Source of the DNA: a virus
Length of the DNA stretch: 64,000 nt
Reading direction: 5' to 3' (one strand)
IMG/VR virus record: IMGVR_UViG_3300045988_046531
Below the pieces are notes generated by a model. The model saw nothing but the letters and a program-made list of their open reading frames with translations. It was not told the origin of the DNA and searched no databases. Within the stretch, counting starts at the first letter, position 1; the number at the start of each line of letters is the position of its first letter. The position numbers and the translations under genes are program-made. Shown one piece after another: positions 29,478-49,036 of this stretch.

Positions 29478-29756
29478 TTGGAAGTATTACCTACCTGGAT
29501 TACTAAAGACAATATATTTATGAGAGGTAAAGACATAATAGTAACATTCAATGAGCCTTGGTATAATGACTATAACAAACGATTATACACTCAATTATCC
29601 GAACAAATGATTAGAGAAGAGATTGAGAGAGTGCATAAAGAACCAATCATTACTAATGCTGCATTTGATATAGCAGTAGACAAGGCTTTCCTAGAGTTAC
29701 TGCATGACAACAAGGATTTAATTAATATTACAGAACGATACAAGAACCATGAGTAA
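29478..29756 (+). CDS. hypothetical protein
   Basis: 92-aa ORF. Confidence 0.35.
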   Translation: MEVLPTWITKDNIFMRGKDIIVTFNEPWYNDYNKRLYTQLSEQMIREEIERVHKEPIITNAAFDIAVDKAFLELLHDNKDLINITERYKNHE

Positions 29757-29783
29757 AATAGCAACAGAATTAGAAGCTAAGAC

Positions 29784-30317
29784 TATGGGGGGGGGACTCT
29801 CTCGGTAATTGATAATAAGTGCTGTACTAAAGCTAGAGCACTTGAATTAGGATGTCAGATTAAAAGTGGATTTAGTTATACCGATAATCAGTTAGTGGAG
29901 TTAGAAGGTATAGAGGCAGCTATAACTGCTCCAAATGTAATCCTTCATTATGGTTGGGAGGATATGCCAATTAATAATATACAGCAATTTAGAGTACGTT
30001 TCTCATTTGTTAATCAGAGTTCAGTAGATGGAGAACCATTTAAGTATTCTGATAATACTACTTACTTTACAATTACTCCAAGATTAGAGCAGGGAGAACG
30101 AACATATACTAAAACTCTGGCAAATCCTCTTAAATATTACTTAGAGAAACTAGCACTTCCTAACCAAGACCCATATAATACACCTGTTTGGATACGCTTT
30201 GAGGGATATACGATACTTAGGCAAGTGTCTCAAATTACATTAGCAGTAGATTCTCAATCTGAGAATTGGGCAGAAGGAGCTTGCCATTGCCAACTTTATG
30301 TTAAAACTAAAGACTAA
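29784..30317 (+). CDS. hypothetical protein; the reading frame is open from an ATG at 29784 that is followed directly by a 9-nt poly-G tract (ATG GGG GGG GGG); the ORF track starts it at 29895
   Basis: In-frame extension checked codon by codon from 29784 to 29895 with no stop. Confidence 0.4.
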   Translation, partial: YGGGTLSVIDNKCCTKARALELGCQIKSGFSYTDNQLVELEGIEAAITAPNVILHYGWEDMPINNIQQFRVRFSFVNQSSVDGEPFKYSDNTTYFTITPRLEQGERTYTKTLANPLKYYLEKLALPNQDPYNTPVWIRFEGYTILRQVSQITLAVDSQSENWAEGACHCQLYVKTKD

Positions 30318-30482
30318 TAATTATGGATGAATTAAAGAACCAATTAGCACAGTATTTATGTAGCCAAATTCATAATGGTACTAAAGATTTGATTGAATTA
30401 ATTGAATCAGAAGACCTTATTAATGAACAGTGGTATAAGAACTGGAAGGAAGAGATGAGAATCTTACTACAGGAGAAGTAAT

Positions 30483-30722
30483 ATGATAATACTTAGTGGG
30501 AATTGTCCTAGGCATCATAATGCCATTATGTTGGAACTTACAGACTTTGATGATAGTAAAATTTCCTATCTAGCTAGAATATCTAGAGGACATCATGTCG
30601 ATACTCTGTTAGTTCCTAGAGAATATAAAGATACATTTGAATCTACAGAACTGCACAAAGTACTACTGCCTAATATTAGTATAGGTGATGTACAATTTGC
30701 TAAAATATACTATTATGATTGA
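30483..30722 (+). CDS. hypothetical protein
   Basis: 79-aa ORF. Confidence 0.3.
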   Translation: MIILSGNCPRHHNAIMLELTDFDDSKISYLARISRGHHVDTLLVPREYKDTFESTELHKVLLPNISIGDVQFAKIYYYD

Positions 30723-30922
30723 TGTTAGAAGGACATTAGAGAATTTACATCAGATACTTCCAAACTTATCAATAGAGGACTTATTTAGAGTTCTTGATAA
30801 TATAGTAGAGATTCCACAATTTAACGTAGGACAGACAACTACTATACGTAGAGATGATAGTGGCTGGAGACCATATGACCCAGGTACATTTATATCTTAT
30901 GCTAGTAATGGAATAACACTTA

Positions 30923-31132
30923 GTGATGAAGGAACTTGTAAATAATTGGAATGAGAAGCATCCCGAATACGTATTGGTACACGGGATGTATTCTTATGTA
31001 GACAACGGTCAGTCTAAGGATATGCACATGCTTACTATCTTTAATAAGGATAATGAATGTATATGTGAATATAAAGGAGAAGATTTTATTAAGTTGTATA
31101 ATACATTAGAAGAAGAATGGGAAGATGCTTAA
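30923..31132 (+). CDS. hypothetical protein
   Basis: 69-aa ORF. Confidence 0.3.
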   Translation: MMKELVNNWNEKHPEYVLVHGMYSYVDNGQSKDMHMLTIFNKDNECICEYKGEDFIKLYNTLEEEWEDA

Positions 31133-31156
31133 TGTTAATATAATAGTAAGTGAATT

Positions 31157-31441
31157 ATGGAGAATAAATTAAACGTGCCAAAGCTGGAATATAAAACAGG
31201 AGAACCTATGTGGGTTCATTGGGATAATAGATACGTATTGCGTGGAGGACATATACTAGGAAAATGCCCAGATGAGAATTTGATAACCACAGTGGGCTAC
31301 TTGGCATATATGGATGATAAATCAATAATATTGGGAAGAGGTATTGAGAATCATTGTAATGAGGACGGTACTCGTAGAGTAAAAGATACAGTACAAATAC
31401 CAATGAGCTTAGTAGCTAGCTATGGAAGTTTCAATCAATGA
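31157..31441 (+). CDS. hypothetical protein
   Basis: 94-aa ORF. Confidence 0.35.
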   Translation: MENKLNVPKLEYKTGEPMWVHWDNRYVLRGGHILGKCPDENLITTVGYLAYMDDKSIILGRGIENHCNEDGTRRVKDTVQIPMSLVASYGSFNQ

Positions 31442-31444
31442 ACT

Positions 31445-32299
31445 ATGACAAATGAGGAGTATAATAAATGGCTAATCCTTTACTTTGATATGCAATCTAT
31501 AAATTTACAGTTCAATTGTAATGATATAGCATCATCACTAAAGGCACAAAGAGATAAGATAAAACAATTCTGTATTGACTGTCTAACAGGAGTAAAACAT
31601 CAGGCTGACAGCTTTCTATTTGACACAAATGCTTGCATATTCTCTACTTCTGAAACTAGAGAGCTATTGTTCTCGCATGAAGAATATCTCATTCTTGAGG
31701 CTGATACTACTAAAGTAGTTGACGGAAAGTATCCCTTAGACTACGCTAATGAAATAGTAGAATCTAATTTGGACACTATTATTGACTATATAGTACAATC
31801 GGGAACAGAAACATACAATGATAGAACCAGTAGAGGATTTGGGAATAGGTGGAGTCCTTATAATGAGGAGGAACGTAAACAAGTAATTAAACTGTTTAAC
31901 TCTGGAACTTGGTATGATACACTTGGGTCCTTAAAGCATTTATATTATGAAAGAACCCCCAAAGGCTTAAGAATGTGTAACCTGACTGGCGAACCCTTAC
32001 AAGCCAATGTTCTAGAACATATAGAAGATATTATTTTGAACATAAAAGACCATTATGAAACATTTGCCGTTGTTCCTAGAGGTAAATCTAAATTACAAGT
32101 TTATATGACAATTAGCAATGGAACAAATGGGGCTGAAGGATGTATTATTAATTCTATGGAAGATGTTCTAAATGTGCTTAAAAACTTAAGGAAATATAAA
32201 GGAGTAAATTGGTCTCAATTATTAGAAGTTGGAATAGATAATGCAGATGATTTATATTGGTGGTACGTGACATTCTCTATAGACACTACAGCTATATAA
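31445..32299 (+). CDS. hypothetical protein
   Basis: 284-aa ORF. Confidence 0.45.
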   Translation: MTNEEYNKWLILYFDMQSINLQFNCNDIASSLKAQRDKIKQFCIDCLTGVKHQADSFLFDTNACIFSTSETRELLFSHEEYLILEADTTKVVDGKYPLDYANEIVESNLDTIIDYIVQSGTETYNDRTSRGFGNRWSPYNEEERKQVIKLFNSGTWYDTLGSLKHLYYERTPKGLRMCNLTGEPLQANVLEHIEDIILNIKDHYETFAVVPRGKSKLQVYMTISNGTNGAEGCIINSMEDVLNVLKNLRKYKGVNWSQLLEVGIDNADDLYWWYVTFSIDTTAI

Positions 32300-32428
32300 T
32301 AAAATTGATACCAGCCAGTAGATGCTAGGCACAAAGCCTAAGATAGTTTTTACATCTTCGTCTTGGTGGTCTACGCCAGTGCGCTCTGACGTATTCCCAC
32401 TTACCGAGACGGAATCTTATTATAAACA

Positions 32429-32472
32429 ACAAAGCCCGAACTTAGTTTAATTACTAGGCTCGGGCTTTATTA
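32429..32472. terminator. bidirectional rho-independent terminator between convergent genes
   Basis: AAAGCCCGA ... TCGGGCTTT stem with an A-run upstream and a T-run downstream. Confidence 0.6.
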
Positions 32473-32482
32473 TATCAACCTG

Positions 32483-33568
32483 TTATGTATTAATTTTAAT
32501 TACTTGTCTAGAATAGTCAGGCAAGTCAAGTATTTTATTACTTTGGTCAAATGTAGAAGCTGTATTCTGCAATAGGAGTCTTTTAGTTCCATTCGAACCA
32601 ATTGCATACCAATTTGAATCTACATATATTAAATCAGTAAGAGTATATTCACCTAGTGTAGATGTAGTCCAATTATTACCCCTATCTGTAGACACACTCT
32701 TCATATTATTTCCTATAAGCATAAATGTATTAGTCCCAGCTTCATTTGCATACAAACCTTTAGTCAAAGCAGTTAGTTGTGGTCTAGTGGTTGCAGCAGT
32801 CCATTGAGTTCCAGTTGGGTTAGTACTAACGTATGTATAATTACTTGTAGTGCTATATACTACACTTCTTGGCGAAGAATGAAACCCTTGTATTACTGCA
32901 CTTGGTGTAAACATTCCAGGAGTATAATAAGTAAGAGAATCTGGTACAGATGTAGCCAAGAAGGTATATATTCTAGCTCCTCCCTGATATGATGCCCCAA
33001 CACAGCAGTAATCATGAGGCCCAGTTGATATGCTATTGACTGGGCCTACAACACTACGCTCCTTTACTGTACCGTCATCATACACTATAATAACATAGTT
33101 CTTACCGTCTCCTTCTGCTCCCTTATAAAATACCCAGCCAGTAGAGAACCTAGCCAAGTGAGCATAACCATAAGCTCTTACAGTATCTTTGTATTTTAAT
33201 TCCCACTGTTTGGTAGACTGATTAACTACATACAATCCTCCAAGCATAGACAATGCTCCAATTGCTTCACCTCCTCCAGCTATGTATACAAAATCCTCAT
33301 GGCCGTCTATAGCTGGAATTTGAGCATAGGTACCACCGCCAGCAAAGTATAAACTACCTGTCTCCGCATTAATAAGGAATAGGTCTTTGTCTACAACTAT
33401 ATCTTCTTCTTTAACTAATTGATTTGGCTGGTAGTTACTAGACGCAACTACGCCACCCCAGAGACTAATTATGGTTTGGTAATGAGGACAATACCCCCCC
33501 CCCTTCCCGTAATCTATTGACATTCCAGTCAATTCATTCAGTTTGTCTTGTGTTACTATTTTACTCAT
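32483..33568 (-). CDS. BNR/Asp-box repeat protein (sialidase-like beta-propeller); carries a 10-nt poly-G tract (plus-strand 33494-33503) encoding GKGGGY near its N-terminus
   Basis: STDRGNNWT matches the S-x-D-x-G-x-T-W Asp-box; Gly/Thr/Ser/Tyr-rich beta composition. Confidence 0.45.
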   Translation of the reverse strand: MSKIVTQDKLNELTGMSIDYGKGGGYCPHYQTIISLWGGVVASSNYQPNQLVKEEDIVVDKDLFLINAETGSLYFAGGGTYAQIPAIDGHEDFVYIAGGGEAIGALSMLGGLYVVNQSTKQWELKYKDTVRAYGYAHLARFSTGWVFYKGAEGDGKNYVIIVYDDGTVKERSVVGPVNSISTGPHDYCCVGASYQGGARIYTFLATSVPDSLTYYTPGMFTPSAVIQGFHSSPRSVVYSTTSNYTYVSTNPTGTQWTAATTRPQLTALTKGLYANEAGTNTFMLIGNNMKSVSTDRGNNWTTSTLGEYTLTDLIYVDSNWYAIGSNGTKRLLLQNTASTFDQSNKILDLPDYSRQVIKINT

Positions 33569-34067
33569 TATATATTAATTTGCTATTGATAATTTAATAA
33601 ATATCTTTATATTTGCATCGTAAACTATTATGTCATACACCCTAGCTAAAGAGATGCTTACTATCTACAAAGATTAGTTAGTTATTAATTTAATTCAGAG
33701 TATTATGAGCAGAAATAGCTTACGAGCAAAAACTGTCTTCGTACATTCGTGTAAGATATCGCAAACTGGAACACGTTTGTAAGCATTACAGAAGACGTCC
33801 GCGTAGATAAGTTCAAAGCCAGATTGTGTACAGCAGTCTGGCTTTGTTTTATGATGTAAAGTTACTCAATATCAGTTAATTAAACAAATGGTAATATGTT
33901 AAGTATTGTTACTAGGTTGTTCACCTAGCATATCATCATCTAACTCCTCATGTATAAAAGCTAATATTTCACCTGTTATAGCGTTCTTAATACATTTGAA
34001 TCCGGGTGCAATTTCTTCAACTATCTTCTCACATTCAATAGTGCACCACTCGGGTATTGTTTTATCC

Positions 34068-37000
34068 TCACTTTCCATTGTCATAATTATTAATAGTAGC
34101 CGCAGTAGGAACTCCAACTGCTGTACCAAATCCATACTTGTTAAATCTTCTCATGAACTCATTCTTATCTTTAATTATGTAATTGAACATAATTCTAAGA
34201 TTTCTAAGCCCATTATTCTCACTAGTCCCCACATAAGGATTATTATTAATAAGTCTATCAATCTCATCAACACTCTTGAAGTTGGGAACTCCAGACTTAC
34301 CTGCTCTTTGTTCAAACTCTATTAAGGGATGCAATTGGGAGTTAAACTCTGAAGGAATGGTTAGATATTTATATTTATTTCTAACACTTACTTCGTTATA
34401 CTCTGGATGTTCTTTCATTATCCGTTTAACAAACTCATCTTCTGATACTATATTGTCCTTCATTAGAGCTTGTAGCCTAGGTCCTCCAGTCTTAGCATAT
34501 TGGTAATATTCAGCTGGAGTCATATCTTTTAACAGTGCTGCTTGGAGCAATTCTATCCCATGCTTAGCCTCGTGCCCAGGTACGTGTGAAGGGTCATTTC
34601 TAAGTATCTCGAAAGCAATTCTATCGAAGTCTTTAGTAACTAGTACGCCGTCATCTGATACAGTCCTTGATTTGTTTATTATATCGTCGTATATGCCTAT
34701 ATCTCCTTTGTTTCTAGGATATACTAATAATTCCCCGTTATTGTATCTTCTAACAAATCTCTTAGCTGCTTCGCCATACTTAGTCCCTAATTCTGCATCT
34801 ATACTAGCGATTCTCTGTTGCGTTTCAGGATTTAGTAGATATTCCACGAAATTCTGTATGTTCTTATTAATGTCTAAATCACCATTCATAGAAGTTCCTG
34901 TATCAATGAACTGGCTCTTCTCTAATGGCTTAGCTCCTTTCTTAAACACTCTACCATTCTTCAAATCATCTCTAAGACTAAAGATTACTTGGTTATTAGA
35001 ATATCCATTATCATATACATTATTAAAGATTACTCCATCTGCATTCATCTTATCAGCTGCTCGTTCTAATGCTGCCCTGTTAGGTACATCACCTACAGTA
35101 ACTATTGGTCTCTCTAACTCTAAATCACCTTCTACTCTGTAAGGTCTCTTGGCAAATCTCTCTCTAGCCTTAGCTGCTTTCTCTGCCTTACCTGGTATAG
35201 AATGATTAGCTGCTGTTCTTGGATTGCCAAATTTACCTTGATACCATATACCAACTTCAGGAGCGCCTTCATGAATAGCATCCCACCTTTCTGGAAAGTA
35301 TAATTTCGGGAGTCTAGCACTATTCTTATCATGTACTACATGTATGGATTGTCTAGGTCCCCAACCTACATTATTGGGCAATGGCTCAACTGAAGGAGTC
35401 CCTTTATCTATAGCCTTACTAATTACTCTAGCCCATTTATTACCACCAACAGCCATATCTTTTACTGGCTTTAACTTAGGTCCAAAGTTACGCATTCCAA
35501 ATCCACCTGCCAAATTACCTATGTTAAAGAAATCTGCAACTACCGGATTCATTCCTGTAGTCTTAGAAAGCATATCAGCCCAGTCTTTATATTTGTCATT
35601 ACTAGCTACATTGGTAATCTTATTAACTGCTTCATTACCTGCATATCCACCTGCTACTGATAATGGTCCAAATATTGCACCTGTTAATAATGTACTAACA
35701 TAGGGTGCGGCTTCTCTCCTTCCTCTATCTACAGCTCCTGCTAGATTAATATTCCTAGGAGTAACTGTTACTTCTGGTAAAGTTACATTATTCATACCAT
35801 TCTCATTATTAACTGGCAATACTATATTACCTCTCTTATCATAACCTCCCATATATTTAATAGGTTGTGCAGGTTCTTGATATTTAATAATACCACCTGC
35901 TTTGAAACTATTATACACGCCTCTTAATGAATTGGCATACTCCTTAGCTTCTGCATATCTTCTCTTACCTTTATTAGAACCAGTAAGCTTAGCTACAAAC
36001 TTATTAATATCATCATTCTCATCAAAGTCATATAGTCTCTTTAAGAATTGTATCTTATCTGCTGCATACTCATCCATAGAATTATAAGACCTAAACTTCT
36101 GCTTAATAGCTTCACCTTTAGCATTTTTATCATTACCAGTTACATAATCACCTTTCCATGAACTACCAGTAGTTAAATTGCCAAAGTTGTACTTACCTTG
36201 TGCAGACCTACCCCAACTAGATTCTAATGCGTCTTGTGCTAATAACATTCTAATTGCATTATCATTAGTAATACCTGCCTTCTTATAGGCATTAATAAGT
36301 TCTGTAGACCATTGTCTTCTGTTAGTATATGGACTCTTCCAAGTTGAGTTGGCAGTTTTAGTAACAGGTTTATCAGTAACAGATTTACTAGCTACTGGTT
36401 TATTAATTACTGGCTCTGCTGTAGGATTATTAGCTACTACATCAGGTTCATTAGTATCTCTTACTGGTACTACTAAAGCCTCTGGTTTATCGTAAGTTGT
36501 GTTGTAATTATATTCACTAAATGGATTAATAGGATTAGTAATATCAGTAATATCTACTCTAGGAGTTTCTACTACATTATAGCTTGCAAATCTCATTCCT
36601 TGTTGAGCTTTCTTGATTCGCTTCTTATAGGTTAGGCGACTTGATTTGATGAACTTCTTACGCATATCCCTCTTACCGCTCAACTCCTCTTGCTTCTTTA
36701 ATATAGGAGACTTCTTAAAGTCAAATCTTCCACCATGTGCCATAGTTACTAATTCCGGATTTCTAACAGACTTACCTTCAATCCATATAGGATTAGATTG
36801 CTGCAATATGAAAGGACGACCTACTTTATCCATTAATGCAGCTTGTTTAATAAGCCTAACTTGGTTAGCAGGATTAAATTTCCACATATCTTGAGAAGTC
36901 TGTCTAAGCTTACCCTTATTCATTTGAAACTTAACCAAGTGTCCAGCAACGTCATCAATAGGACCTATATAATCGGTTCCTGGCTGCCTAAAGGTCATAA

Positions 37001-38072
37001 ACTCTTTATCTCCCATACGCATTACTGGTTCAGTCTCCTTACCAACAACCTTGCCGATTGGATTCTTTCCAGCATAATCAGTAAACTCTGTAACATTCTC
37101 AAACTTAAGAGGTCTACCAGAGGGTACTACTGCACTCATTTCGTATCTTCTGTTATGAACTCCAGGATAAAGCTGCTCATATCTATCCCCATGACTAAAT
37201 CCTCTCCTTGCTTCATTACGGCTAATAGGTTTGATATTACTAGTAGCTTTATTAAAGAACATTCTTTTAACTACTGGATTCTCATCAAATATATATTTAG
37301 CTAATAGATTCCTACCTTCTAAATTTCCTCCACCTAGTATTGAAGAACCTGTGTAGTCGGCTGGCATTGTTTTTATATCTTGCAAACTTACTGATGCATT
37401 ACCGTTAGTTCTCTTGGCAGCTTTATAAGCAGCCACTTTTAATGGTAATTTCTCTACCTTAGATAGAAATGGAGTAATTCTGTTAGCTGTTGCCATTGCT
37501 ATATTAGAAGGAGTTCTTGCTTCCTTATTAAATATCCAATGATTCTTGTTAATAGGATTCCAAGCTAGGTCAGCGTCACCTTTAATTGATTTAGTTATTA
37601 ACTTGTCCTTTCCAATCTTATATCCTTTAGCACCACCATACCAAGCTCCTGGATTAGTATAAACTCCAATTTCGGACGGAATGCCAGTTTTATCTTCCAA
37701 CCAGTTACCCCAGCCCCCGGTAAGCTTATCCACAGTCATATTACCTAAAGCTCCTCCTACAACAGCGGCTGGAGTTGTTACTAATGCAGCACCAGCTGCT
37801 GAAGGAAGTATAGTTCTTTCTATTCCAACTAAAGGATTAGTCTCATTGGACATAGAAGCCCTGAATCTGGCTTTAGCTCCTTTAATAGGATGCCAATAGT
37901 CTCTATTTCTTTCAGCAGCTGACCTGGTATCATTAGAAGGTTCTCCACCTAAATCTACAATGGAATACTGTCTAGGTTTAGCTTTAATAGGTTCATGAAT
38001 TTCTGGCCTAACTACTTTAGTATTATCGGACTCTATGGTATTTCCTTGTTGTAGTTTAGGTATTACTTTCAT
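34068..38072 (-). CDS. large virion-associated (tail) protein with a glucosaminidase (FlgJ-like muramidase) motif and a separate HExxH metallopeptidase-like motif
   Basis: LAQDALESSWGRSAQGKYNFGNL matches the Glucosaminidase-family ALESGWG...NNLFG signature; HEAKH near the C-terminus; 1334 aa. Confidence 0.55.
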   Translation of the reverse strand: MKVIPKLQQGNTIESDNTKVVRPEIHEPIKAKPRQYSIVDLGGEPSNDTRSAAERNRDYWHPIKGAKARFRASMSNETNPLVGIERTILPSAAGAALVTTPAAVVGGALGNMTVDKLTGGWGNWLEDKTGIPSEIGVYTNPGAWYGGAKGYKIGKDKLITKSIKGDADLAWNPINKNHWIFNKEARTPSNIAMATANRITPFLSKVEKLPLKVAAYKAAKRTNGNASVSLQDIKTMPADYTGSSILGGGNLEGRNLLAKYIFDENPVVKRMFFNKATSNIKPISRNEARRGFSHGDRYEQLYPGVHNRRYEMSAVVPSGRPLKFENVTEFTDYAGKNPIGKVVGKETEPVMRMGDKEFMTFRQPGTDYIGPIDDVAGHLVKFQMNKGKLRQTSQDMWKFNPANQVRLIKQAALMDKVGRPFILQQSNPIWIEGKSVRNPELVTMAHGGRFDFKKSPILKKQEELSGKRDMRKKFIKSSRLTYKKRIKKAQQGMRFASYNVVETPRVDITDITNPINPFSEYNYNTTYDKPEALVVPVRDTNEPDVVANNPTAEPVINKPVASKSVTDKPVTKTANSTWKSPYTNRRQWSTELINAYKKAGITNDNAIRMLLAQDALESSWGRSAQGKYNFGNLTTGSSWKGDYVTGNDKNAKGEAIKQKFRSYNSMDEYAADKIQFLKRLYDFDENDDINKFVAKLTGSNKGKRRYAEAKEYANSLRGVYNSFKAGGIIKYQEPAQPIKYMGGYDKRGNIVLPVNNENGMNNVTLPEVTVTPRNINLAGAVDRGRREAAPYVSTLLTGAIFGPLSVAGGYAGNEAVNKITNVASNDKYKDWADMLSKTTGMNPVVADFFNIGNLAGGFGMRNFGPKLKPVKDMAVGGNKWARVISKAIDKGTPSVEPLPNNVGWGPRQSIHVVHDKNSARLPKLYFPERWDAIHEGAPEVGIWYQGKFGNPRTAANHSIPGKAEKAAKARERFAKRPYRVEGDLELERPIVTVGDVPNRAALERAADKMNADGVIFNNVYDNGYSNNQVIFSLRDDLKNGRVFKKGAKPLEKSQFIDTGTSMNGDLDINKNIQNFVEYLLNPETQQRIASIDAELGTKYGEAAKRFVRRYNNGELLVYPRNKGDIGIYDDIINKSRTVSDDGVLVTKDFDRIAFEILRNDPSHVPGHEAKHGIELLQAALLKDMTPAEYYQYAKTGGPRLQALMKDNIVSEDEFVKRIMKEHPEYNEVSVRNKYKYLTIPSEFNSQLHPLIEFEQRAGKSGVPNFKSVDEIDRLINNNPYVGTSENNGLRNLRIMFNYIIKDKNEFMRRFNKYGFGTAVGVPTAATINNYDNGK

Positions 38073-38314
38073 TATTTATTCGATTTATCGTTATTGGTGA
38101 ATCTCTTCCATATTCCTGTTACTGAATCTATACCAAGCAATCCCATACAACACAACAGGACTGTGTCTATCATTAATGGGGCTTGAATTACGTTTATTGC
38201 ACAGTATATTAACACTCCCAAGCAGACAAACCACCCTACTACTCCGCAGAGTCTCTTAGATGATATGCCAGAGTGGGATGTGAATACTTGCTTTAAGAAT
38301 GTTACAAACTTCAT
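38072..38314 (-). CDS. small two-TM membrane protein (holin-like by size and position, immediately downstream of the muralytic virion protein)
   Basis: 80 aa with two hydrophobic helices and a charged C-terminus. Confidence 0.3.
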   Translation of the reverse strand: MKFVTFLKQVFTSHSGISSKRLCGVVGWFVCLGVLIYCAINVIQAPLMIDTVLLCCMGLLGIDSVTGIWKRFTNNDKSNK

Positions 38315-39256
38315 TATATAATTACATTTATAGAAATATTAGCTGTGTCACCTCCTATATATGCCTGATTTATTGGTATTTCAGTAGTTACCCCAGATTG
38401 GCATACTGCGTTATTTGTTACACTATCTGCATCTACAGTCACCCTGTATGTACTGAAATATCCAGTGAACAATAATTTAGAGACACTAGTTAAATCAGTT
38501 GGTAAATTAAAGTGGAAGTTTCTGTCAAAGAAAGTTGCCCCTTGATAGTCTAGAGTTCCAGACCTAGGAATTGTTATAAACCCATCTGGAACTCCATCTA
38601 TGTAAACATCTGCTACAAAGTCATATTCTTTGCATTATTTAATAGGAATGCTACGTAAGTATTACTTCCAATCACACTATTGCCAAACAAAGCTACATTT
38701 CTTATAACACCTGCTATAGGGTATACCACCATGGATGAAGCAGGAATATCTGGTGTAGCCGATGTGCTTTGACCATACATATTTATGATTGATATACCCA
38801 TTGTAGTGTCTGTAGTAGTGTTATTAAAGAATATTAGGGTGCTGCCGCTTAGTGAACCGTTTAATAAATCTATAGCGTCAGCAATACCCCCCCTTGGGAA
38901 GATTATCTACAAATTGCTGTTTAGTTATGCATCTATTATTCGCAACTCCGTCTAAGCTTAAGCCTTCCGCTCTAGCTTCTGCTGCTGTTACTAATTCGTT
39001 AGTCTTCTCCATAATTAGTCTTGGTATTCTCTTAAATTGCCAATTGTTACTTCAAATTCATCTGATTTCATATAAGGAGATATATCATCATCCTTAGCGG
39101 CTTCATTCAAACAGAATAAATCTGATGGGAATGATTGAGCCTTGATTCTTATTTGCTTGAGTAGTCTGGAATGTTTATTCTTAGACCATACCCAAACATC
39201 AAATATAAAGTTTCTCATACTGCGATTACTGTACTTTAATTCTTAAATGTTAAGTA

Positions 39257-39586
39257 CTATTTAAGTGTAGAAGCAACCCACTTTTGACTAGTAGCTTTAT
39301 TAAGGCTGAAACTCTGTAAACCATTACCTGTATCTACGCGTAATGTAAATATATTGCCTACTGGGAGTCCTATTATTGCTATATTAGTACACGTTGGTAT
39401 AGAATTAGCTATTCCATAATACAGTAACTGAAACGGGACCATGTCTGTCATATTAGACTTCACAATCTCCATTACTGCACTGTCGGCACTGTTAACCTCT
39501 ACATTACTACTTCTACCAGGATAAATCAAATCTTGTGTTGTTAAAACTAGGGTCTGAACCCCCCCCCATAGACTGAAGTGCATCAT
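39257..39586 (-). CDS. hypothetical protein with a 9-nt poly-G tract (plus-strand 39559-39567) at codons 7-9 (WGG)
   Basis: 109-aa ORF. Confidence 0.35.
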   Translation of the reverse strand: MMHFSLWGGVQTLVLTTQDLIYPGRSSNVEVNSADSAVMEIVKSNMTDMVPFQLLYYGIANSIPTCTNIAIIGLPVGNIFTLRVDTGNGLQSFSLNKATSQKWVASTLK

Positions 39587-39646
39587 TCACCTGTTTAGTG
39601 GTTGGGCATTTGTTGTCGTCGTTTTGTATTAAAGCCATAATAGTTA

Positions 39647-40027
39647 TTATTTGATTATTCTACGTTTAATTTGCATACCCCTATTAGCCATTAACATACC
39701 GCTACTTCTTTTGTTATTGGTATTACTAGCGAATGTATTATGGTAAGTGGCAATTTCATCATCTGTAAGAGTGTTAAATCCCGTAGGGATAATAGCACCT
39801 TTAGCTCTCATCTCTTGTATGTCAGTACCCTTTAATTGTCTGTTGGGATCAATATAATAGTTACCATTTGCATCTTTCATGTTCACATTAGCTCCTCTAA
39901 ATCCTTGTTGTTGAACATTAACTCTGTCTGGATTGTCTTTATTCTCCTTGGGATTAGGTCTTGCTACTGTTCCTTGCTGTGCCTTAATAATCCCTCTTCC
40001 TTTAGTTGATATTCTCATAATATCCAC
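39647..40027 (-). CDS. hypothetical protein
   Basis: 126-aa ORF. Confidence 0.35.
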   Translation of the reverse strand: MDIMRISTKGRGIIKAQQGTVARPNPKENKDNPDRVNVQQQGFRGANVNMKDANGNYYIDPNRQLKGTDIQEMRAKGAIIPTGFNTLTDDEIATYHNTFASNTNNKRSSGMLMANRGMQIKRRIIK

Positions 40028-40395
40028 TTAAACCAGCCATAGCTAAACGTCTTCCTATTAAGCTCTGGATGTTCAGCTACATACCTAGCTTCCCTTTCAA
40101 ATGATATGTTTCTATAGGCAGTGTGAGCATTGCCACTAGCTAGTAATTTAATAAACCACTCTATTACATACCATAAATAGAAGAATACTATTCCCATTTC
40201 TAACATCTGCTTTGTGTGAGTCTTCTCATGTGTAACTGTAGCTTGACTCATTCTCTTTATATAATCCTCACTCCTAGTAAACATAATACCACAAATATTC
40301 ATAAATGAATATCCTTTTACTGGAAGTAATGGGTTGATAAAGAATAGCAATCCTTTAGATTTGTCGTACTTAAATTTCATAGTTAGTGCTTCCAT
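40015..40395 (-). CDS. small putative zinc metallopeptidase-like protein (HEKTH = HExxH)
   Basis: ATVTHEKTHTKQ motif followed by a hydrophobic segment. Confidence 0.3.
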   Translation of the reverse strand: MEALTMKFKYDKSKGLLFFINPLLPVKGYSFMNICGIMFTRSEDYIKRMSQATVTHEKTHTKQMLEMGIVFFYLWYVIEWFIKLLASGNAHTAYRNISFEREARYVAEHPELNRKTFSYGWFKWIL

Positions 40396-40682: not shown

Positions 40683-40843
40683 AATTAAATTACATGTTAA
40701 ATCACTTTTTTATTCACAAAGGTATTGCTAAATTTGCACATTATCAAACAAATCAGATGAATTAATGATTTAAGGTGTCAATGTAAATAAGTAATAAAGA
40801 AACTAAACTATTATTAATCTCTAACCTTTAAATCAATAGATTA

Positions 40844-45600: not shown

Positions 45601-46573
45601 TGACACAATAAACTAAAGCCGACTATAAATTCCGCAAAATCGGTGAAGACTAACGTGATTAATCACTTATTAAATTTAATATTATGACTAAGAAGGAACA
45701 ATTAAAATTTATTGAGGATAACTATCCCTTATACAACAATCATATATCTAACAGAAGAATAAGACATACATTCTTCGATACAATCGAAACTGAACTACAA
45801 GCTTATCTGCTTGGATTTTATGCCGCTGATGGCAGTATTGATGAGAAACGCAAAACCTTAAGAGTTCATTTGCAGTCTGGAGATTCTGAAATAGTGTACT
45901 TATTTAAAGATAGTATAAGTCCAGACGCTAGAACGTTTACCGTAGCACCACATATTGTAACTGGAAGAAACGGTATGAAAGTAAATGCCCATGCATCATT
46001 TGGAGTTGACATTACTAGTTCCAAATTATGTAATGCCTTAGTAGACTTAGGGATAGGATATAATAAAAGCGTAGCAGAACTCAAAATTCCAAGCATTCCT
46101 GAGGACCTTGTGAAACATTTCATCAGAGGTTATTTTGATGGAGATGGGTGTATTACTGGATGGTTAGCTACAGAGAAGGGTAAAGCTGACAGAGTTAGAT
46201 ATAAGTTTGATATATGTAGTAAAACAATTACTATGTTGTCTGATATACAGAAGGTTCTTTCTAAGAATGATATTAATGTAAATATTAATTATCTTAAACG
46301 TGATGATATGTATAGGATATCTACTTCATCTAAAAGCGAAGTGAGTAAACTATATCATTATCTATATAATGATGCTAATTTCTATTTATCAAGAAAGTTT
46401 AATAAGTTTAGTTACTATGTTAATACCGAGGTAAGTCAGCTCATCGCTGACCACCGTAACGCGCAGGAGGTGAACGTTAATGAGAGTAATAATCCTCCCA
46501 CGAGTGCGGAACATTCTATAAAAGAATGAATATGTGCGCTGACCTTATAGGAAACTATAAGAAGTATAGGATA
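45601..46573 (+). mobile_element. intron-like insertion carrying a LAGLIDADG homing endonuclease gene (probable group I intron); the 3' boundary is approximate (46573-46597)
   Basis: The last exon nucleotides GTCGGT (45595-45600) can pair with GCCGAC (45618-45623) with a terminal U-G, as in a group I P1 helix. About 30 nt upstream and 70 nt downstream of the HEG ORF are about 85 percent identical to the flanks of the second element at 48074-49036, which is more conserved than the two HEG proteins. Confidence 0.5.
45684..46529 (+). CDS. LAGLIDADG homing endonuclease (two-motif, single-chain type)
   Basis: YLLGFYAADGSI and FIRGYFDGDGCI motifs. Confidence 0.85.
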   Translation: MTKKEQLKFIEDNYPLYNNHISNRRIRHTFFDTIETELQAYLLGFYAADGSIDEKRKTLRVHLQSGDSEIVYLFKDSISPDARTFTVAPHIVTGRNGMKVNAHASFGVDITSSKLCNALVDLGIGYNKSVAELKIPSIPEDLVKHFIRGYFDGDGCITGWLATEKGKADRVRYKFDICSKTITMLSDIQKVLSKNDINVNINYLKRDDMYRISTSSKSEVSKLYHYLYNDANFYLSRKFNKFSYYVNTEVSQLIADHRNAQEVNVNESNNPPTSAEHSIKE

Positions 46574-48076
46574 AAAAGCCTATACGGTAACAAAGTGTTT
46601 AGTGAAATTGCAGCATCTTTAGGAGTTAGGTTATATACAACTGTTAGAGGTTCACATACAGTATATGTAGCATTTACCGAGAAGTTCGTTAGTGACGTGC
46701 TTCGTAAATGCTGGGAACAACTTGAATATTTAAATGCTGATACAGAAGGTGGTATGAGACATCTAAGACAGAAGTATAATTCTGATATGCATAAGAGAGC
46801 TTCTCTTCTTACTAAGGATAGAGAAGAATTTGGATTCATGTCAGATATTATTGGCTTCGTAGTAGATGTTCCTCGTAAGCTACGTGGAGACCGTGTGGAT
46901 AGATTGTTCTTTGAAGAATCTGGTTCTAACCCAATCCTAGTAAAGACTTACTTACAGAGTACGGCTCTTGTAGAAATTCTAGGTAATAAGTTTGGAACTA
47001 GATTTGTGTGGGGAACAGGTGGAGACCAGGGACCTGCACTTGACGGACTTAGTAAGATGTTTTATAATCCAGCTGGTTATAATTTCTTACCTTACAAACA
47101 CAACCATACTAAAGACGGGTCTTATGCTTTTACCTCATTCTTTATACCTGCTTACACATTTGTAGCAGCAAATGGATATGTAGACGATAGAGGGGTTACT
47201 AATACTGCGAAGGCTAAGAAATTCTATTTAGACCAAAGAGAGGCTCTACTAGCTAACCCGAAGGAGCATTTAATTGCATGTGCAGAGTTCTGTTTTACTC
47301 CTGATGATGCTTTGGCTCTTGAAGGAGATAATCAGTTCAATACTGTATTGTTAAGTGAGCAACTTGCTAATATCAAACTACATAAACTAGGACCACATAT
47401 TGATGTAGGTCAGTTAGAGTATAACTTCACTAACAACCAGCACACAGAAGAAGCAATTGACAGTGTAAGATTTGTTAGTAACCCCAAAGGTAAAGTGAAG
47501 ATACTTGAACATCCGATTAAAGGAGAGCATGGAGCTGTGCCTAAAAATCTATATGTTGCTGGTATTGACGGCATTGATATGGGTGGTGAGGACACTTCTG
47601 ATAAGACTCAAGACCCTTCTGATTTCTGTGTAGTAGTTAAGAAGAGAGCCTATGGGTTAGATGAACCTAAAATAGTGTGCTATTATAGGGACAGACCTAA
47701 GACTTTACGTGAAGCACATATGACATGTCTTAAGATATTGCAGTATTACGATTGCCAAGCAGTTCTTGAATCTACTAGAATGTCTACTCTGCAATTCTTT
47801 AGAGAGAAACATAAAGAGAATAGACATTTGATGAGAAGACCTAGAGCTACTCAATCTGACATACAAGGAGGTCGTAGTAAACAATTCGGAGCTCCTGCTA
47901 CTGAAGTAGTAATTAGGCATCAATTAGATTTAATAGCTCAACATATAGAAGATTATTGTCATAATATATGGTTTGAAGAAATTCTAGAAGAAGCAATTAA
48001 ATACAGTTATGAAAACAAACGTAAGTTTGATATTATAGCTGCATGGGGGATAGAATGTTGTCCCTCCTCATGGTAA
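46574..48076 (+). CDS. terL: terminase large subunit, exon 2 (rest of ATPase domain with Walker B LFFEE, plus RNaseH-like nuclease domain); the ORF track starts it at 46526 but the first 48 nt belong to the conserved element flank
   Basis: VDRLFFEESG (hhhhDE Walker B) about 105 aa after the KS start; LYVAGIDGIDMGGEDTSDKTQDPSDFCVVVKKR resembles a terminase nuclease-domain acidic motif. Confidence 0.6.
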   Translation, partial: KSLYGNKVFSEIAASLGVRLYTTVRGSHTVYVAFTEKFVSDVLRKCWEQLEYLNADTEGGMRHLRQKYNSDMHKRASLLTKDREEFGFMSDIIGFVVDVPRKLRGDRVDRLFFEESGSNPILVKTYLQSTALVEILGNKFGTRFVWGTGGDQGPALDGLSKMFYNPAGYNFLPYKHNHTKDGSYAFTSFFIPAYTFVAANGYVDDRGVTNTAKAKKFYLDQREALLANPKEHLIACAEFCFTPDDALALEGDNQFNTVLLSEQLANIKLHKLGPHIDVGQLEYNFTNNQHTEEAIDSVRFVSNPKGKVKILEHPIKGEHGAVPKNLYVAGIDGIDMGGEDTSDKTQDPSDFCVVVKKRAYGLDEPKIVCYYRDRPKTLREAHMTCLKILQYYDCQAVLESTRMSTLQFFREKHKENRHLMRRPRATQSDIQGGRSKQFGAPATEVVIRHQLDLIAQHIEDYCHNIWFEEILEEAIKYSYENKRKFDIIAAWGIECCPSSW

Positions 48077-49036
48077 CATGAGGCAATAAAATAATCCCGA
48101 AATATCGGTGAAGACTAACGTAACTTAAATAAAATGATTTATCATGGATGATTTACTAAACACAATATGCCCATTAGAGAAGATGGGTAAAGGAATAAAG
48201 AATATCAGACACAGATTCTTCCATTCTATAGAAACTGAAATACAAGCCTATTTATTAGGATTTATAGCAGCAGATGGTAGCATTGACGAGAAACGTAATG
48301 CATTATCAATTCATGTTAGTGCTAAAGATATAGAAATACCACAGCTGTTTCAGAAATGGGTAAGTCCAGAGAGTAGTATAGAATCTTATGTTGGTAACAC
48401 TTTCAACTCTAGAGGTAAAACGTACACTTCTAAAGATTCCGTTAGAATTAATATTACCAGTAAGCAATTAATTTCTGATTTAAAGAATCTGGGAATTACG
48501 CAAGCTAAGACGTGGAGAGAGTTACACATTCCTAACATAGATGAGTCTTTAATAAAACATTTCATCAGAGGTTATTTTGATGGAGATGGATGTTTCTCTA
48601 TGTCGGTTAGAAAGCCTAATGCTAAGAACAGAGAGAAGAATTACAGAGTATCCGCTCAGGTAGAGATATACTGTAAAAGAGATGAAATATTGAAGGATGT
48701 CAGAGCATTTATATTAAAAGAACTGGGAGTAGAAATGAGAATATATTACATAGATAGAGATGATATGTTTAAAATACGTACCAGCAAAAGTGATGATATA
48801 AAGTCACTGTTCTCATATATATATGATGGCTCTGTCTATCTGAATAGGAAGTTTAGTAAGTTTAGTTACTATGTTAATACCGAGGTAAGTCAGATTATAT
48901 CTGATACCGTAACGCATAGAGAGTGAAATAATCTCTCCAAGAGTTTGGGACATCCTAATAAGGATGAATATGTATGCTGAACTAATAGGAAACTATTAGA
49001 GCAATAGGATAAAAAGCCTATTGGGTAACATATTGG
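48074..49036 (+). mobile_element. second, homologous intron-like or free-standing HEG element; boundaries approximate
   Basis: The 5' flank cccgaaatatcggtgaagactaacgt and the 3' flank gaatatgtatgctgaactaataggaaactattagagcaataggataaaaagcctattgggtaaca match the element-1 flanks; a GUAA-looped hairpin CCTCATG/CATGAGG spans the junction. Confidence 0.45.
48144..48926 (+). CDS. LAGLIDADG homing endonuclease (paralog of 45684-46529)
   Basis: YLLGFIAADGSI and FIRGYFDGDGCF motifs. Confidence 0.85.
   Translation: MDDLLNTICPLEKMGKGIKNIRHRFFHSIETEIQAYLLGFIAADGSIDEKRNALSIHVSAKDIEIPQLFQKWVSPESSIESYVGNTFNSRGKTYTSKDSVRINITSKQLISDLKNLGITQAKTWRELHIPNIDESLIKHFIRGYFDGDGCFSMSVRKPNAKNREKNYRVSAQVEIYCKRDEILKDVRAFILKELGVEMRIYYIDRDDMFKIRTSKSDDIKSLFSYIYDGSVYLNRKFSKFSYYVNTEVSQIISDTVTHRE

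What the first reader, a model, noticed from the sequence alone, without database searches (positions are those of the whole stretch)
29784..39586. Nine-to-ten-nt poly-G tracts at the 5' ends of three virion-module genes
Coding-strand G9 or G10 runs lie right after the start codon of the gene at 29784 (ATG GGG GGG GGG, plus-strand 29787-29795), at codons 21-24 of the BNR protein (plus-strand 33494-33503), and at codons 7-9 of the gene at 39257-39586 (plus-strand 39559-39567). A G7 at 38887-38893 opens a frame with no ATG. Homopolymers of this length are otherwise absent from the window and are classic slipped-strand phase-variation switches. On a phage they could create on/off heterogeneity of host-interaction proteins. 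Alternatively they are homopolymer sequencing errors.
Basis: seen in the sequence. Interest (0 to 1): 0.6.

Follow-up and report, generated by a model that had tools for sequence, protein, structure and literature searches.

The report
Hypermutable poly-G switches in gut phage
Four related genes of an uncultured human-gut phage each carry a run of 7-10 G's near their start whose length differs between otherwise near-identical phage genomes, putting each gene in or out of frame, so the phage probably makes mixed populations that display different surface-binding proteins.

Summary
The tracts are real and sit at the stated coordinates. They are the only homopolymers of 7 or more bases in 64 kb (about 0.02 G/C runs of 9 or more expected), in a genome that otherwise strongly avoids homopolymers. 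The gene anatomy needed correcting. There are four genes, not three, and their N-termini are paralogous. In this window only one (g2, G10) is in frame; g1 (G9), g3 (G9) and g4 (G7) are out of frame relative to their conserved start codons.

In about 110 related contigs from human-gut viromes and metagenomes, all four tracts keep their position but vary from G6 to G11. Both ON and OFF states occur at every gene, and G9 is the modal length whatever frame it gives. Tract length is unrelated to how similar the genomes are: contigs 100% identical over 1.2 kb still differ at both tracts. GGG is the rarest glycine codon here. The open reading frames downstream of the tracts stay intact.

The proteins combine a conserved ~55-aa N-terminal module with variable C-terminal binding-type domains. 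A role in the virion or in host range is inferred, not shown. The closest precedent is the poly-G tracts of Campylobacter phages, so this is a new member of a known kind.

The parts
29749..30317 (+). g1: poly-G gene, OFF in this window. ATG 29749, tract at codons 13-16, stop at 30315-30317. 189 aa if G10 or G7; 215 aa in most relatives.
   Evidence: N-terminus MSKIATELEAKTMGGGTLSVIDNKCCTKARALELGC...NQLV is conserved. The C-terminal domain is a beta-sandwich (pLDDT 82).
29787..29795 (+). G9 tract of g1. It sits on the family-conserved Gly-Gly of the N-terminal module.
   Evidence: Lengths 6-10 in 23 contigs, 9 ON and 14 OFF.
32483..33568 (-). g2: poly-G gene, ON in this window (361 aa). N-terminal module followed by a 7-bladed beta-propeller with one Asp-box.
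33494..33503 (-). G10 tract of g2 (codons 22-25, K-G-G-G).
   Evidence: Lengths 6-10 in 20 contigs, 6 ON and 12 OFF. Interrupted, locked variants such as KGEG, KGRG and KGGE occur among homologues.
38613..39012 (-). g4: poly-G gene, OFF in this window. ATG 39012. 133 aa if G6 or G9; 164 aa in relatives.
   Evidence: pN/pS is 2.2 over 65 distinct intact ORFs.
38887..38893 (-). G7 tract of g4.
   Evidence: Lengths 6-11 in 73 contigs, 33 ON and 36 OFF. G9 (ON) in MT835470.1.
39257..39638 (-). g3: poly-G gene, OFF in this window relative to the conserved start ATG 39638. 126 aa if G8 or G11. An internal ATG at 39586 is in frame with G9 and would give a 109-aa product without the N-terminal module.
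39559..39567 (-). G9 tract of g3.
   Evidence: Lengths 6-11 in 64 contigs, 21 ON and 40 OFF.
29749..29769 (.). Left arm of a 21-nt inverted repeat (the first 7 codons of g1). Its partner is 33548-33568 (the first 7 codons of g2). The 3.8-kb segment between the arms is precisely inverted in some relatives.
33548..33568 (.). Right arm of the same inverted repeat.

Best explanation
The four tracts are hypermutable poly-G contingency loci.

Mechanism. During phage DNA replication, slipped-strand mispairing adds or removes G's (inferred from the established behaviour of such tracts). Each tract lies 13-40 codons into a gene, so a change of one base toggles the gene between a full-length protein and a 19-47-aa stub. 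That frame arithmetic is shown directly from the sequence.

The genes. The four genes are paralogues. Each encodes a conserved ~55-aa N-terminal module (consensus M.KIATE.EA..IGG...NKCCTK.RA..LGC....Y..NQLV) fused to a different C-terminal domain: a beta-propeller in g2, a beta-sandwich in g1, and small domains in g3 and g4. In g1 the tract sits on the module's conserved Gly-Gly.

Consequence. Four independent switches allow up to 16 genotypes. Any burst should therefore contain a mixture of phages that make different sets of these proteins.

Most likely role (inferred, not shown). The N-terminal module attaches the protein to the virion, or to some common partner. The variable domains bind host surface structures. 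The switches would then give bet-hedging heterogeneity in adsorption or host range. The likely host is a member of the Bacteroidota, whose own surface is phase-variable.
For: 1. The tracts are extreme outliers, in a genome that purges homopolymers even after controlling for codon usage. A runs of 5 or more: 13 observed against 105+-7 in synonymous-codon shuffles; T runs: 1 against 39.
2. GGG is the rarest glycine codon (6.7%). No other Gly-Gly-Gly in the window uses GGG GGG GGG.
3. Position is conserved and length varies from 6 to 11 in about 110 contigs, with ON and OFF states at every gene. ON out of classifiable contigs: g1 9/23, g2 6/18, g3 21/61, g4 33/69.
4. G9 is the modal length at all four genes, although it is ON only in g4. 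This indicates a mutational equilibrium. A modal length of nine, and length-dependent insertion/deletion bias, are reported for C. jejuni poly-G tracts (PMC3401435).
5. Length is independent of relatedness. L002 and L023 are 100% identical over 1.2 kb but differ at both tracts. The chance of equal length equals the random expectation (0.26-0.28) in all identity bins.
6. The length calls are reproducible. Three assemblies 99.98-100% identical to the window carry the same four lengths. High-coverage contigs still differ from one another.
7. The required corrections differ in sign between genes (+1/-2 for g1; -1/+2 for g3 and g4), so a single directional programmed frameshift cannot explain them.
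8. The post-tract ORFs stay intact. pN/pS is 0.56-0.57 for g1 and g2, 1.2 for g3 and 2.2 for g4. OFF frames terminate within about 25 codons even if TAG is read through.
9. Locked alleles with interrupted tracts or compensating one-base insertions exist.
10. The N-terminal module heads about 290 cluster representatives of 60-1121 aa with unrelated C-termini, some with InlB B-repeat or BspA-type LRR domains. Chimeras that swap modules between g1 and g2 exist.
Against: No read-level data, so heterogeneity within one population and the switching rate are not shown.

The ON fraction is close to one third at three genes. That is what an unconstrained frame would give, so selection on the state is not demonstrated. 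Transcriptional slippage could also make OFF alleles leaky.

None of the four proteins matches any Pfam, PHROG or NCBIfam family. The g1 model has no significant PDB neighbour. Virion location and receptor binding are therefore conjecture.

Many contigs come from a few large catalogues and may not be independent. Several metagenome contigs have low coverage.

The host is inferred only from three indirect lines: TerL is about 30% identical to Crassvirales and other Bacteroidota phages; a Bacteroidota-type promoter motif is enriched; and one homologue of the module lies on a contig binned with Phocaeicola.
Confidence: 0.78

Rival explanations
1. Expression device rather than switch. RNA polymerase (or the ribosome) slips on the G run, so every DNA allele yields some in-frame product. 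DNA tract length is then nearly neutral, and the tract serves to set a low expression level.
For: ON fractions of 33-39% at g1-g3 and a common G9 mode regardless of frame fit a frame that is not under selection. The ORFs nevertheless remain intact and g1 and g2 are under purifying selection. Genome-wide avoidance of homopolymers would also fit a slippage-prone polymerase.
Against: Known programmed slippage sites are fixed in length and need one defined shift. Here length ranges from 6 to 11 and the required shift differs in sign between genes. The DNA-level variation is directly observed, so at most this acts on top of genetic switching. Rapid ON/OFF switching explains ORF maintenance equally well. 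There are no transcript data.
Confidence: 0.12
2. Homopolymer sequencing or assembly errors. The true tracts are uniform and in frame.
For: Poly-G runs are error-prone for Illumina chemistry. Many metagenome contigs have k-mer coverage below 5, and G7 calls at g4 are common among those.
Against: The modal length is an OFF length in three of four genes. Differences reach 2-4 bases. High-coverage contigs (cov 82, 19 and 10.5) disagree with one another. Three independent assemblies of the same strain agree exactly with the window at all four tracts they cover. Gene-caller products that start downstream of the tract, as expected for OFF alleles, form clusters with hundreds to more than a thousand members. 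Substitution-interrupted tracts show long-term evolution of the site.
Confidence: 0.04
3. Decaying accessory genes. The G runs are neutral Gly-linker codons in pseudogenes that are being lost.
For: Three of four genes are out of frame in the window. g3 has pN/pS of about 1.2. g2 is deleted in some relatives, leaving a 7-codon remnant. g4 in the window ends early at a TAG (133 aa against 164 aa).
Against: The post-tract ORFs are intact at modal length in dozens of distinct sequences. g1 and g2 have pN/pS of 0.56. g4 has pN/pS of 2.2, which is above neutrality. The tract is kept at length 6 or more in almost every carrier (a few g3 tracts are interrupted by a base substitution), despite strong genome-wide selection against runs. 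GGG is otherwise avoided.
Confidence: 0.05

Closest known systems
Hypermutable poly-G tracts of Campylobacter phages (Fletchervirus/Firehammervirus; Sorensen et al. 2021, Cell Rep 35:109214; cited in PMC12823448 and PMC10877375; paper itself not held, details from my own knowledge)
   Same: Several poly-G tracts of about 8-11 bases inside phage genes. Length changes switch the reading frame. Proposed to create phenotypic diversity in host recognition.
   Different: Different phage lineage (TerL about 30% identical to Crassvirales) and a likely Bacteroidota rather than Campylobacter host. Here all tracts lie in the 5' conserved module of one paralogous, modular gene family, in a genome that otherwise purges homopolymers. 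No experimental evidence here.
Bacterial contingency loci, e.g. poly-G/C tracts of Campylobacter jejuni (Bayliss et al. 2012, PMC3401435)
   Same: Intragenic G runs near the 5' end. Modal length of nine repeats attributed to mutational pattern rather than to selection for a state. ON/OFF by frameshift. Surface-interaction genes.
   Different: Located on a virus, and the replication and repair context is unknown. Switching rates were measured there and not here.
Contingency loci of coliphages T2/T4 (Gomez, Barrick & Waters, bioRxiv 10.1101/2025.10.21.683753)
   Same: Phage-encoded simple-sequence tracts that give reversible frameshifts and bet-hedging.
   Different: [quoted passage not shown] Here there are four long G tracts restricted to one gene family, in a genome depleted of all other runs.
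Other phage tropism-diversifying systems: the Mu G-segment and P1 C-segment inversion, and diversity-generating retroelements (e.g. in epsilon crAss-like phages, PMC11054128)
   Same: Produce mixed phage populations with alternative receptor-binding proteins. A 21-nt inverted repeat at the 5' ends of g1 and g2 bounds a segment that is inverted in some relatives.
   Different: Different mechanism: slippage rather than site-specific inversion or mutagenic retrohoming. No invertase or reverse transcriptase was found in the window, and the inverted arrangement looks lineage-specific.
Programmed transcriptional slippage or ribosomal frameshifting at homopolymers (e.g. dnaX, IS elements, phage tail chaperone G/GT)
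   Same: A homopolymer inside an ORF links two frames.
   Different: Those sites have fixed length and one required shift, and both products are functional. Here length is polymorphic, the shift direction varies and the short product is a 19-47-aa stub.

Membership tests
SSR-mediated contingency locus (phase variation by slipped-strand mispairing) | Homopolymeric tract, inside the ORF or promoter, far longer than composition predicts | tested here: met
   G7-G10 against about 0.02 runs of 9 or more expected. These are the only runs of 7 or more in 64 kb, and the only G/C runs of 6 or more in the 117-kb relative.
SSR-mediated contingency locus (phase variation by slipped-strand mispairing) | A change of +/-1 repeat toggles between a full-length and a truncated product | tested here: met
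   Translations for every tract length.
SSR-mediated contingency locus (phase variation by slipped-strand mispairing) | Tract-length polymorphism among closely related genomes with conserved flanks, with both ON and OFF alleles | tested here: met
   Contigs with 100%-identical flanks differ in length. Sharing of length is at the random expectation.
SSR-mediated contingency locus (phase variation by slipped-strand mispairing) | The tract is maintained by selection at the nucleotide level, not for the encoded residues | tested here: met
   GGG makes up 6.7% of Gly codons. Other GGG tripeptides use GGT/GGA/GGC. Distant module homologues keep Gly-Gly; the one whose DNA was read, L120, has no G run.
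SSR-mediated contingency locus (phase variation by slipped-strand mispairing) | High-frequency, reversible switching within one population | not testable with these tools
   Needs raw reads or passage experiments.
SSR-mediated contingency locus (phase variation by slipped-strand mispairing) | The switch has a phenotypic consequence (here: adsorption or host range) | not testable with these tools
   Function is inferred only from architecture and diversifying substitution patterns.
Programmed frameshift / transcriptional slippage site | Slippery run of fixed length, conserved among relatives | tested here: not met
   Lengths 6-11.
Programmed frameshift / transcriptional slippage site | One defined shift direction joins two functional ORFs | tested here: not met
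   g1 needs +1/-2, g3 and g4 need -1/+2, and g2 needs none. The upstream products are 19-47 aa.
BNR/Asp-box (sialidase-like) repeat protein (g2) | Several S-x-D-x-G-x-T-W Asp-boxes, or a Pfam BNR match | tested here: not met
   One motif only (STDRGNNW, residue 293). No Pfam hit at E<=0.01.
BNR/Asp-box (sialidase-like) repeat protein (g2) | Beta-propeller fold | tested here: inconclusive
   AF2 model with mean pLDDT 63 (70-92 in the core). Foldseek top hits are 7-bladed propellers such as Ycf48, with sortilin Vps10p and GH74 also listed, at E about 1e-7 and TM about 0.5.
Phage receptor-binding / tail-fibre protein | Homology to a known tail-fibre or RBP family, or presence in virions | tested here: not met
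   No PHROG or Pfam hit for g1-g4. The recognisable tail-fibre genes lie elsewhere, at 54-63 kb. Virion presence is not testable.
Phage receptor-binding / tail-fibre protein | Modular build: conserved N-terminal anchor plus exchangeable, fast-evolving C-terminal domain | tested here: met
   module on about 290 representatives, 60-1121 aa; chimeras; pN/pS up to 2.2.

The most novel reading that the evidence does not exclude
A widespread, uncultured lineage of human-gut phages runs a four-gene, up-to-16-state poly-G 'phasome'. The lineage has contigs up to about 190 kb, a TerL distantly related to Crassvirales, and Bacteroidota-type promoters. The switches are written into the conserved N-terminal adaptor module of a modular adhesin-like protein family, in a genome that otherwise eliminates homopolymers. 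This would be the first contingency-locus system described for phages of gut Bacteroidota, and a plausible viral counter to the phase-variable capsules of those hosts. It would also imply unusually slippage-prone replication or transcription in this lineage.
Probability: 0.45. Interest if true: 0.7.

Novelty: new member of a known kind. Interest (0 to 1): 0.58.

Why it matters
Phase variation is well known in gut Bacteroidales as a defence against phages. The reciprocal strategy on the phage side has been shown only for Campylobacter phages and, in a recent preprint, for T-even coliphages.

If these tracts switch as the comparative data indicate, then a common human-gut phage lineage carries heritable, reversible heterogeneity in four binding-type proteins. 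That would bear on how such phages persist alongside phase-variable hosts, on host-range prediction from metagenomes, and on annotation: gene callers currently report truncated or 'frameshifted' versions of these genes. It also gives a concrete target that can be tested against existing read sets.

Tried and rejected
- Pfam, PHROGs and NCBIfam gave nothing for g1-g4.
- The PDB fold search for the g1 model found only weak pilin/adhesin-like beta-sandwich hits (E>1e-3, TM 0.2-0.3). I did not use them.
- A conserved A7 in more distant relatives looked like a possible analogue. It lies in an intergenic promoter region and does not vary in length.
- The C9/G10 runs in the very distant loci L065-L067 are arms of an intergenic hairpin, not gene tracts.
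- TAG recoding was considered because a suppressor tRNA(CTA) is present. It does not rescue any OFF frame, and TAG still ends 6 of 63 ORFs.
- Active DNA inversion of the g1-g2 segment was considered. The inverted genomes share their own junction sequence, and no recombinase was found among the window ORFs scanned, so this is a lineage-level rearrangement until shown otherwise.
- I tried to call the adenylosuccinate-synthase homologue PurZ. It scores far below the cut-offs of both the PurA and the PurZ models.
- Literature searches for poly-G or homopolymer tracts in crAss-like phages found nothing.
- The genome-contig scan gave a single hit, a module homologue without poly-G on a contig binned as Phocaeicola.

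Full report
OBSERVATION

The window (64 kb, 37% G+C) contains exactly four homopolymers of 7 or more bases: G9 at 29787-29795, C10 at 33494-33503, C7 at 38887-38893 and C9 at 39559-39567. A first-order Markov model expects about 0.01 G runs and 0.01 C runs of 9 or more.

The background makes them stand out further, because the genome avoids homopolymers. There is 1 A run of 6 or more against 31 expected, and 2 T runs against 35. When synonymous codons are shuffled within genes, keeping proteins and codon usage, A runs of 5 or more number 13 against 105+-7 and T runs 1 against 39+-4. In the 117-kb relative MT835470.1, the only G/C runs of 6 or more are two of these same tracts.

ANATOMY (corrected)

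All four runs read as G on the coding strand, and each lies 13-40 codons into a gene.

- g1 starts at ATG 29749, overlapping the stop codon of the preceding ORF. With G9 the frame ends after 19 aa. G10 or G7 gives 189 aa.
- g2 (33568-32483) is in frame with G10 and encodes 361 aa.
- g3 starts at ATG 39638, not 39586. G9 gives 41 aa. G8 or G11 gives 126 aa.
- g4 starts at ATG 39012. G7 gives 44 aa. G6 or G9 gives 133 aa.

In this window one gene is therefore ON and three are OFF. The OFF frames stop within about 25 codons even if TAG were read through. That check was needed because the window encodes a suppressor tRNA(CTA).

GGG is the rarest glycine codon (6.7%). None of the other Gly-Gly-Gly tripeptides in the window uses GGG GGG GGG. 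The runs are therefore kept as nucleotide tracts, not merely as glycine codons.

COMPARATIVE TEST

A search with the neighbouring 1334-aa protein returned 66 viral contigs. A DNA-pattern scan of metagenomes returned 47 more. Three contigs encode exactly the window's g2 protein.

- Presence. g1-g4 occur only in the close clade. Almost every carrier has a tract of 6 or more G's at each site; in a few g3 alleles the run is interrupted by a base substitution.
- Length. Lengths run from 6 to 11.
- State. Translating each gene from its homologous start gives, for ON out of classifiable contigs: g1 9/23, g2 6/18, g3 21/61 and g4 33/69.
- Mode. G9 is the modal length at all four genes, although it is ON only in g4.
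- Relatedness. Tract length does not follow relatedness. L002 and L023 are 100% identical over 1.2 kb yet differ at both g3 (10 against 9) and g4 (10 against 9). L008 and L077 (99.8% identical) differ by 3 bases and by 1 base. In every identity bin, the chance of equal length equals the random expectation of 0.26-0.28.
- Reproducibility. Three separate assemblies that are 99.98-100% identical to the window carry the same lengths as the window at every tract they cover. High-coverage contigs nevertheless disagree with one another.
- Locked alleles. Some alleles are interrupted by substitutions (G6AGGG; the KGEG, KGRG and KGGE variants) or compensated by a one-base insertion next to the tract.
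- OFF alleles in protein databases. Gene-caller products that begin downstream of the tract, as expected for OFF alleles, form clusters with hundreds to more than a thousand members, comparable in size to the full-length clusters.

INTERPRETATION OF THE VARIATION

Sequencing error does not explain these data. The mode is an OFF length in three genes, differences reach 2-4 bases, and calls for the same strain are reproducible.

A fixed programmed frameshift does not explain them either. Length is polymorphic, and the correction needed differs in sign between genes.

The pattern is that of slipped-strand contingency loci. A common modal length of nine, set by mutational bias rather than by selection for a state, is what Bayliss et al. 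reported for C. jejuni poly-G/C tracts (PMC3401435).

The genes are not decaying. The post-tract ORFs are intact in dozens of distinct sequences. pN/pS is 0.57 (g1), 0.56 (g2), 1.17 (g3) and 2.20 (g4), against 0.11 for a small neighbouring ORF. This points to purifying selection on g1 and g2, and probably to diversifying selection on g4.

One caveat remains. ON fractions near one third at g1-g3 are what an unconstrained frame would give. Transcriptional slippage that makes OFF alleles leaky therefore cannot be excluded as an additional layer.

WHAT THE PROTEINS ARE

No Pfam, PHROG or NCBIfam family matches any of the four.

An AF2 model of g2 (mean pLDDT 63, core 70-92) is a 7-bladed beta-propeller. 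Its nearest PDB folds are Ycf48-type propellers, with sortilin Vps10p and GH74 also listed. It has a single Asp-box, so 'BNR protein' is only loosely right.

The g1 family model (pLDDT 82) has a disordered first 18 residues and a small Cys-containing N-terminal unit, followed by a beta-sandwich with no significant PDB neighbour.

A profile of the g1 family, searched against 1.84 billion representatives, found 297 proteins. Nearly all match only profile positions 1 to about 65, at their own N-terminus. Their lengths range from 60 to 1121 aa. The consensus is M.KIATE.EA..IGG...NKCCTK.RA..LGC.V.G.Y..NQLV...DLS. Some of the long members carry InlB B-repeat or BspA-type LRR domains.

This is therefore a conserved N-terminal module joined to many different binding-type C-terminal domains. 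g1's tract sits on the module's conserved Gly-Gly. Distant members keep Gly-Gly, and the one whose DNA I read (L120) has no G run. g2, g3 and g4 carry divergent versions of the same motif set (C-x-T-K/Y ... NQLV). Natural chimeras exchange the g1 and g2 parts at the tract or at the NQLV motif.

This architecture, together with the substitution pattern, is what one expects of exchangeable host-binding proteins anchored by a common adaptor. Their presence in the virion is not shown. The recognisable tail-fibre genes lie elsewhere, at 54-63 kb.

g2, g3 and g4 share a minus-strand operon with an 80-aa membrane protein and the 1334-aa glucosaminidase-domain protein. g1 lies in the converging plus-strand gene string.

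THE PHAGE

TerL is 99% identical to that of MT835470.1 (human faeces) and about 30% identical to Crassvirales and other Bacteroidota phages. Related contigs reach 170-190 kb. A Bacteroidota-type promoter motif (TTTG-N17-21-TAnnTTTG) is enriched, with 8 observed against 2.1 expected, and one copy heads the minus-strand operon. The only bacterial-genome hit for the module lies on a contig binned as Phocaeicola. A Bacteroidota host is therefore likely but not shown.

COMPARISON WITH WHAT IS KNOWN, AND NOVELTY

Poly-G contingency loci in phage genes are established for Campylobacter phages (Sorensen et al. 2021, cited). Contingency loci have also been proposed for T2 and T4 (bioRxiv 10.1101/2025.10.21.683753). 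Full-text searches found nothing comparable for crAss-like or other gut Bacteroidota phages.

I therefore class this as a new member of a known kind. Its distinguishing features are four tracts confined to one paralogous, modular gene family, placement inside the shared N-terminal module, and a genome otherwise purged of homopolymers.

VERDICT

- Observation: confirmed, with corrected gene models.
- Artefact: unlikely.
- Function in host interaction: plausible but inferred.
- Decisive test: read-level counts of tract length in the named runs.

Noticed in passing
whole window (also MT835470.1, 117 kb): Genome-wide avoidance of homopolymers beyond what codon usage explains. A runs of 5 or more: 13 observed against 105+-7 in synonymous-codon shuffles. 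T runs: 1 against 39. A/T runs of 6 or more: 3 against about 66 expected. This suggests strong selection against slippage-prone sequence in this lineage. More distant relatives with 30% GC do not show it.
   Followed up: partly
window 29749-33568 (inverted-repeat arms 29749-29769 and 33548-33568): The 3.8-kb segment between the 5' ends of the convergent genes g1 and g2 is bounded by a 21-nt inverted repeat (their first 7 codons, MSKI[A/V]T[E/Q]). It is precisely inverted in L006, L027 and L090. In L005 only g2 is inverted. Several relatives keep only a 7-codon remnant (MSKIVTQEIQLL*) where g2 has been lost. The repeat looks like a recombination hotspot or cassette boundary. The inverted genomes share their own junction sequence, so active flipping is not shown, and no recombinase was found in the window.
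   Followed up: partly
window 14794-14866 (-); tRNA array 852-21855: About 22 tRNA genes, including a suppressor tRNA with anticodon CTA that reads TAG. TAG still terminates 6 of 63 ORFs and read-through adds only 5-40 codons, so any recoding is limited or stage-specific.
   Followed up: partly
window 3203-4270 (-): A short (355-aa) adenylosuccinate-synthase homologue. It hits the PHROG annotated as the PurZ-type enzyme of 2-aminoadenine DNA synthesis (E 1.6e-46), but scores far below the NCBIfam cut-offs for both PurA and PurZ. Whether the phage modifies its adenines is open.
   Followed up: partly
window 45684-46529 and 48144-48926 (+), flanking TerL 46526-48076: Two LAGLIDADG homing-endonuclease ORFs bracket the large-terminase gene. 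In some relatives the terminase match is split into two pieces.
   Followed up: no
g4 38613-39012 and g3 39257-39638 (and orthologues in L002-L114): Excess of non-synonymous change in the post-tract domains (pN/pS 2.2 for g4 and 1.2 for g3), concentrated at a few positions, with the ORFs intact. The g3 C-terminal domain is only 57-100% identical between genomes whose flanks are about 95% identical.
   Followed up: partly
proteins P0161, P0187; locus L061: Natural chimeras exist: a g2-type N-terminus on a g1 C-terminal domain, and a g2 pre-tract region joined to a g1 post-tract region exactly at the poly-G run. L061 carries further paralogues: a g4-type N-terminus with a different 172-aa C-terminus, and a 'YCPTYKEIVDNW' gene that also follows a G9.
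   Followed up: no
window 30240-30317 and 38613-38620: The window's own alleles are atypical at their 3' ends. g1 ends ...AEGACHCQLYVKTKD (189 aa) instead of the usual 215-aa C-terminus, and a minority of database homologues share this ending. g4 stops at a TAG after 133 aa where relatives continue to 164 aa.
   Followed up: no
window 40717-40748 (-) and 7 other sites: The Bacteroidota-type promoter consensus TTTG-N17-21-TAnnTTTG is enriched (8 observed against 2.1 expected). One copy lies in the divergent intergenic region ahead of the minus-strand operon that contains g3, g4 and g2. The same element, with an invariant A7, is conserved in distant relatives.
   Followed up: partly
L065 12945-13033, L066 12773-12829, L067 about 14013: Very distant, AT-rich relatives have a C9-10 / G9-10 pair that forms the arms of an intergenic hairpin next to the glucosaminidase-gene homologue. 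It is unrelated to the coding tracts.
   Followed up: partly
window 8005-9966 (-), 1205-2662 (-), 40015-40395 (-): A 653-aa SPFH/Band-7 domain protein. A 485-aa AAA+ ATPase. A 126-aa ORF with an HExxH motif (THEKTH) in the same operon as g3 and g4.
   Followed up: no
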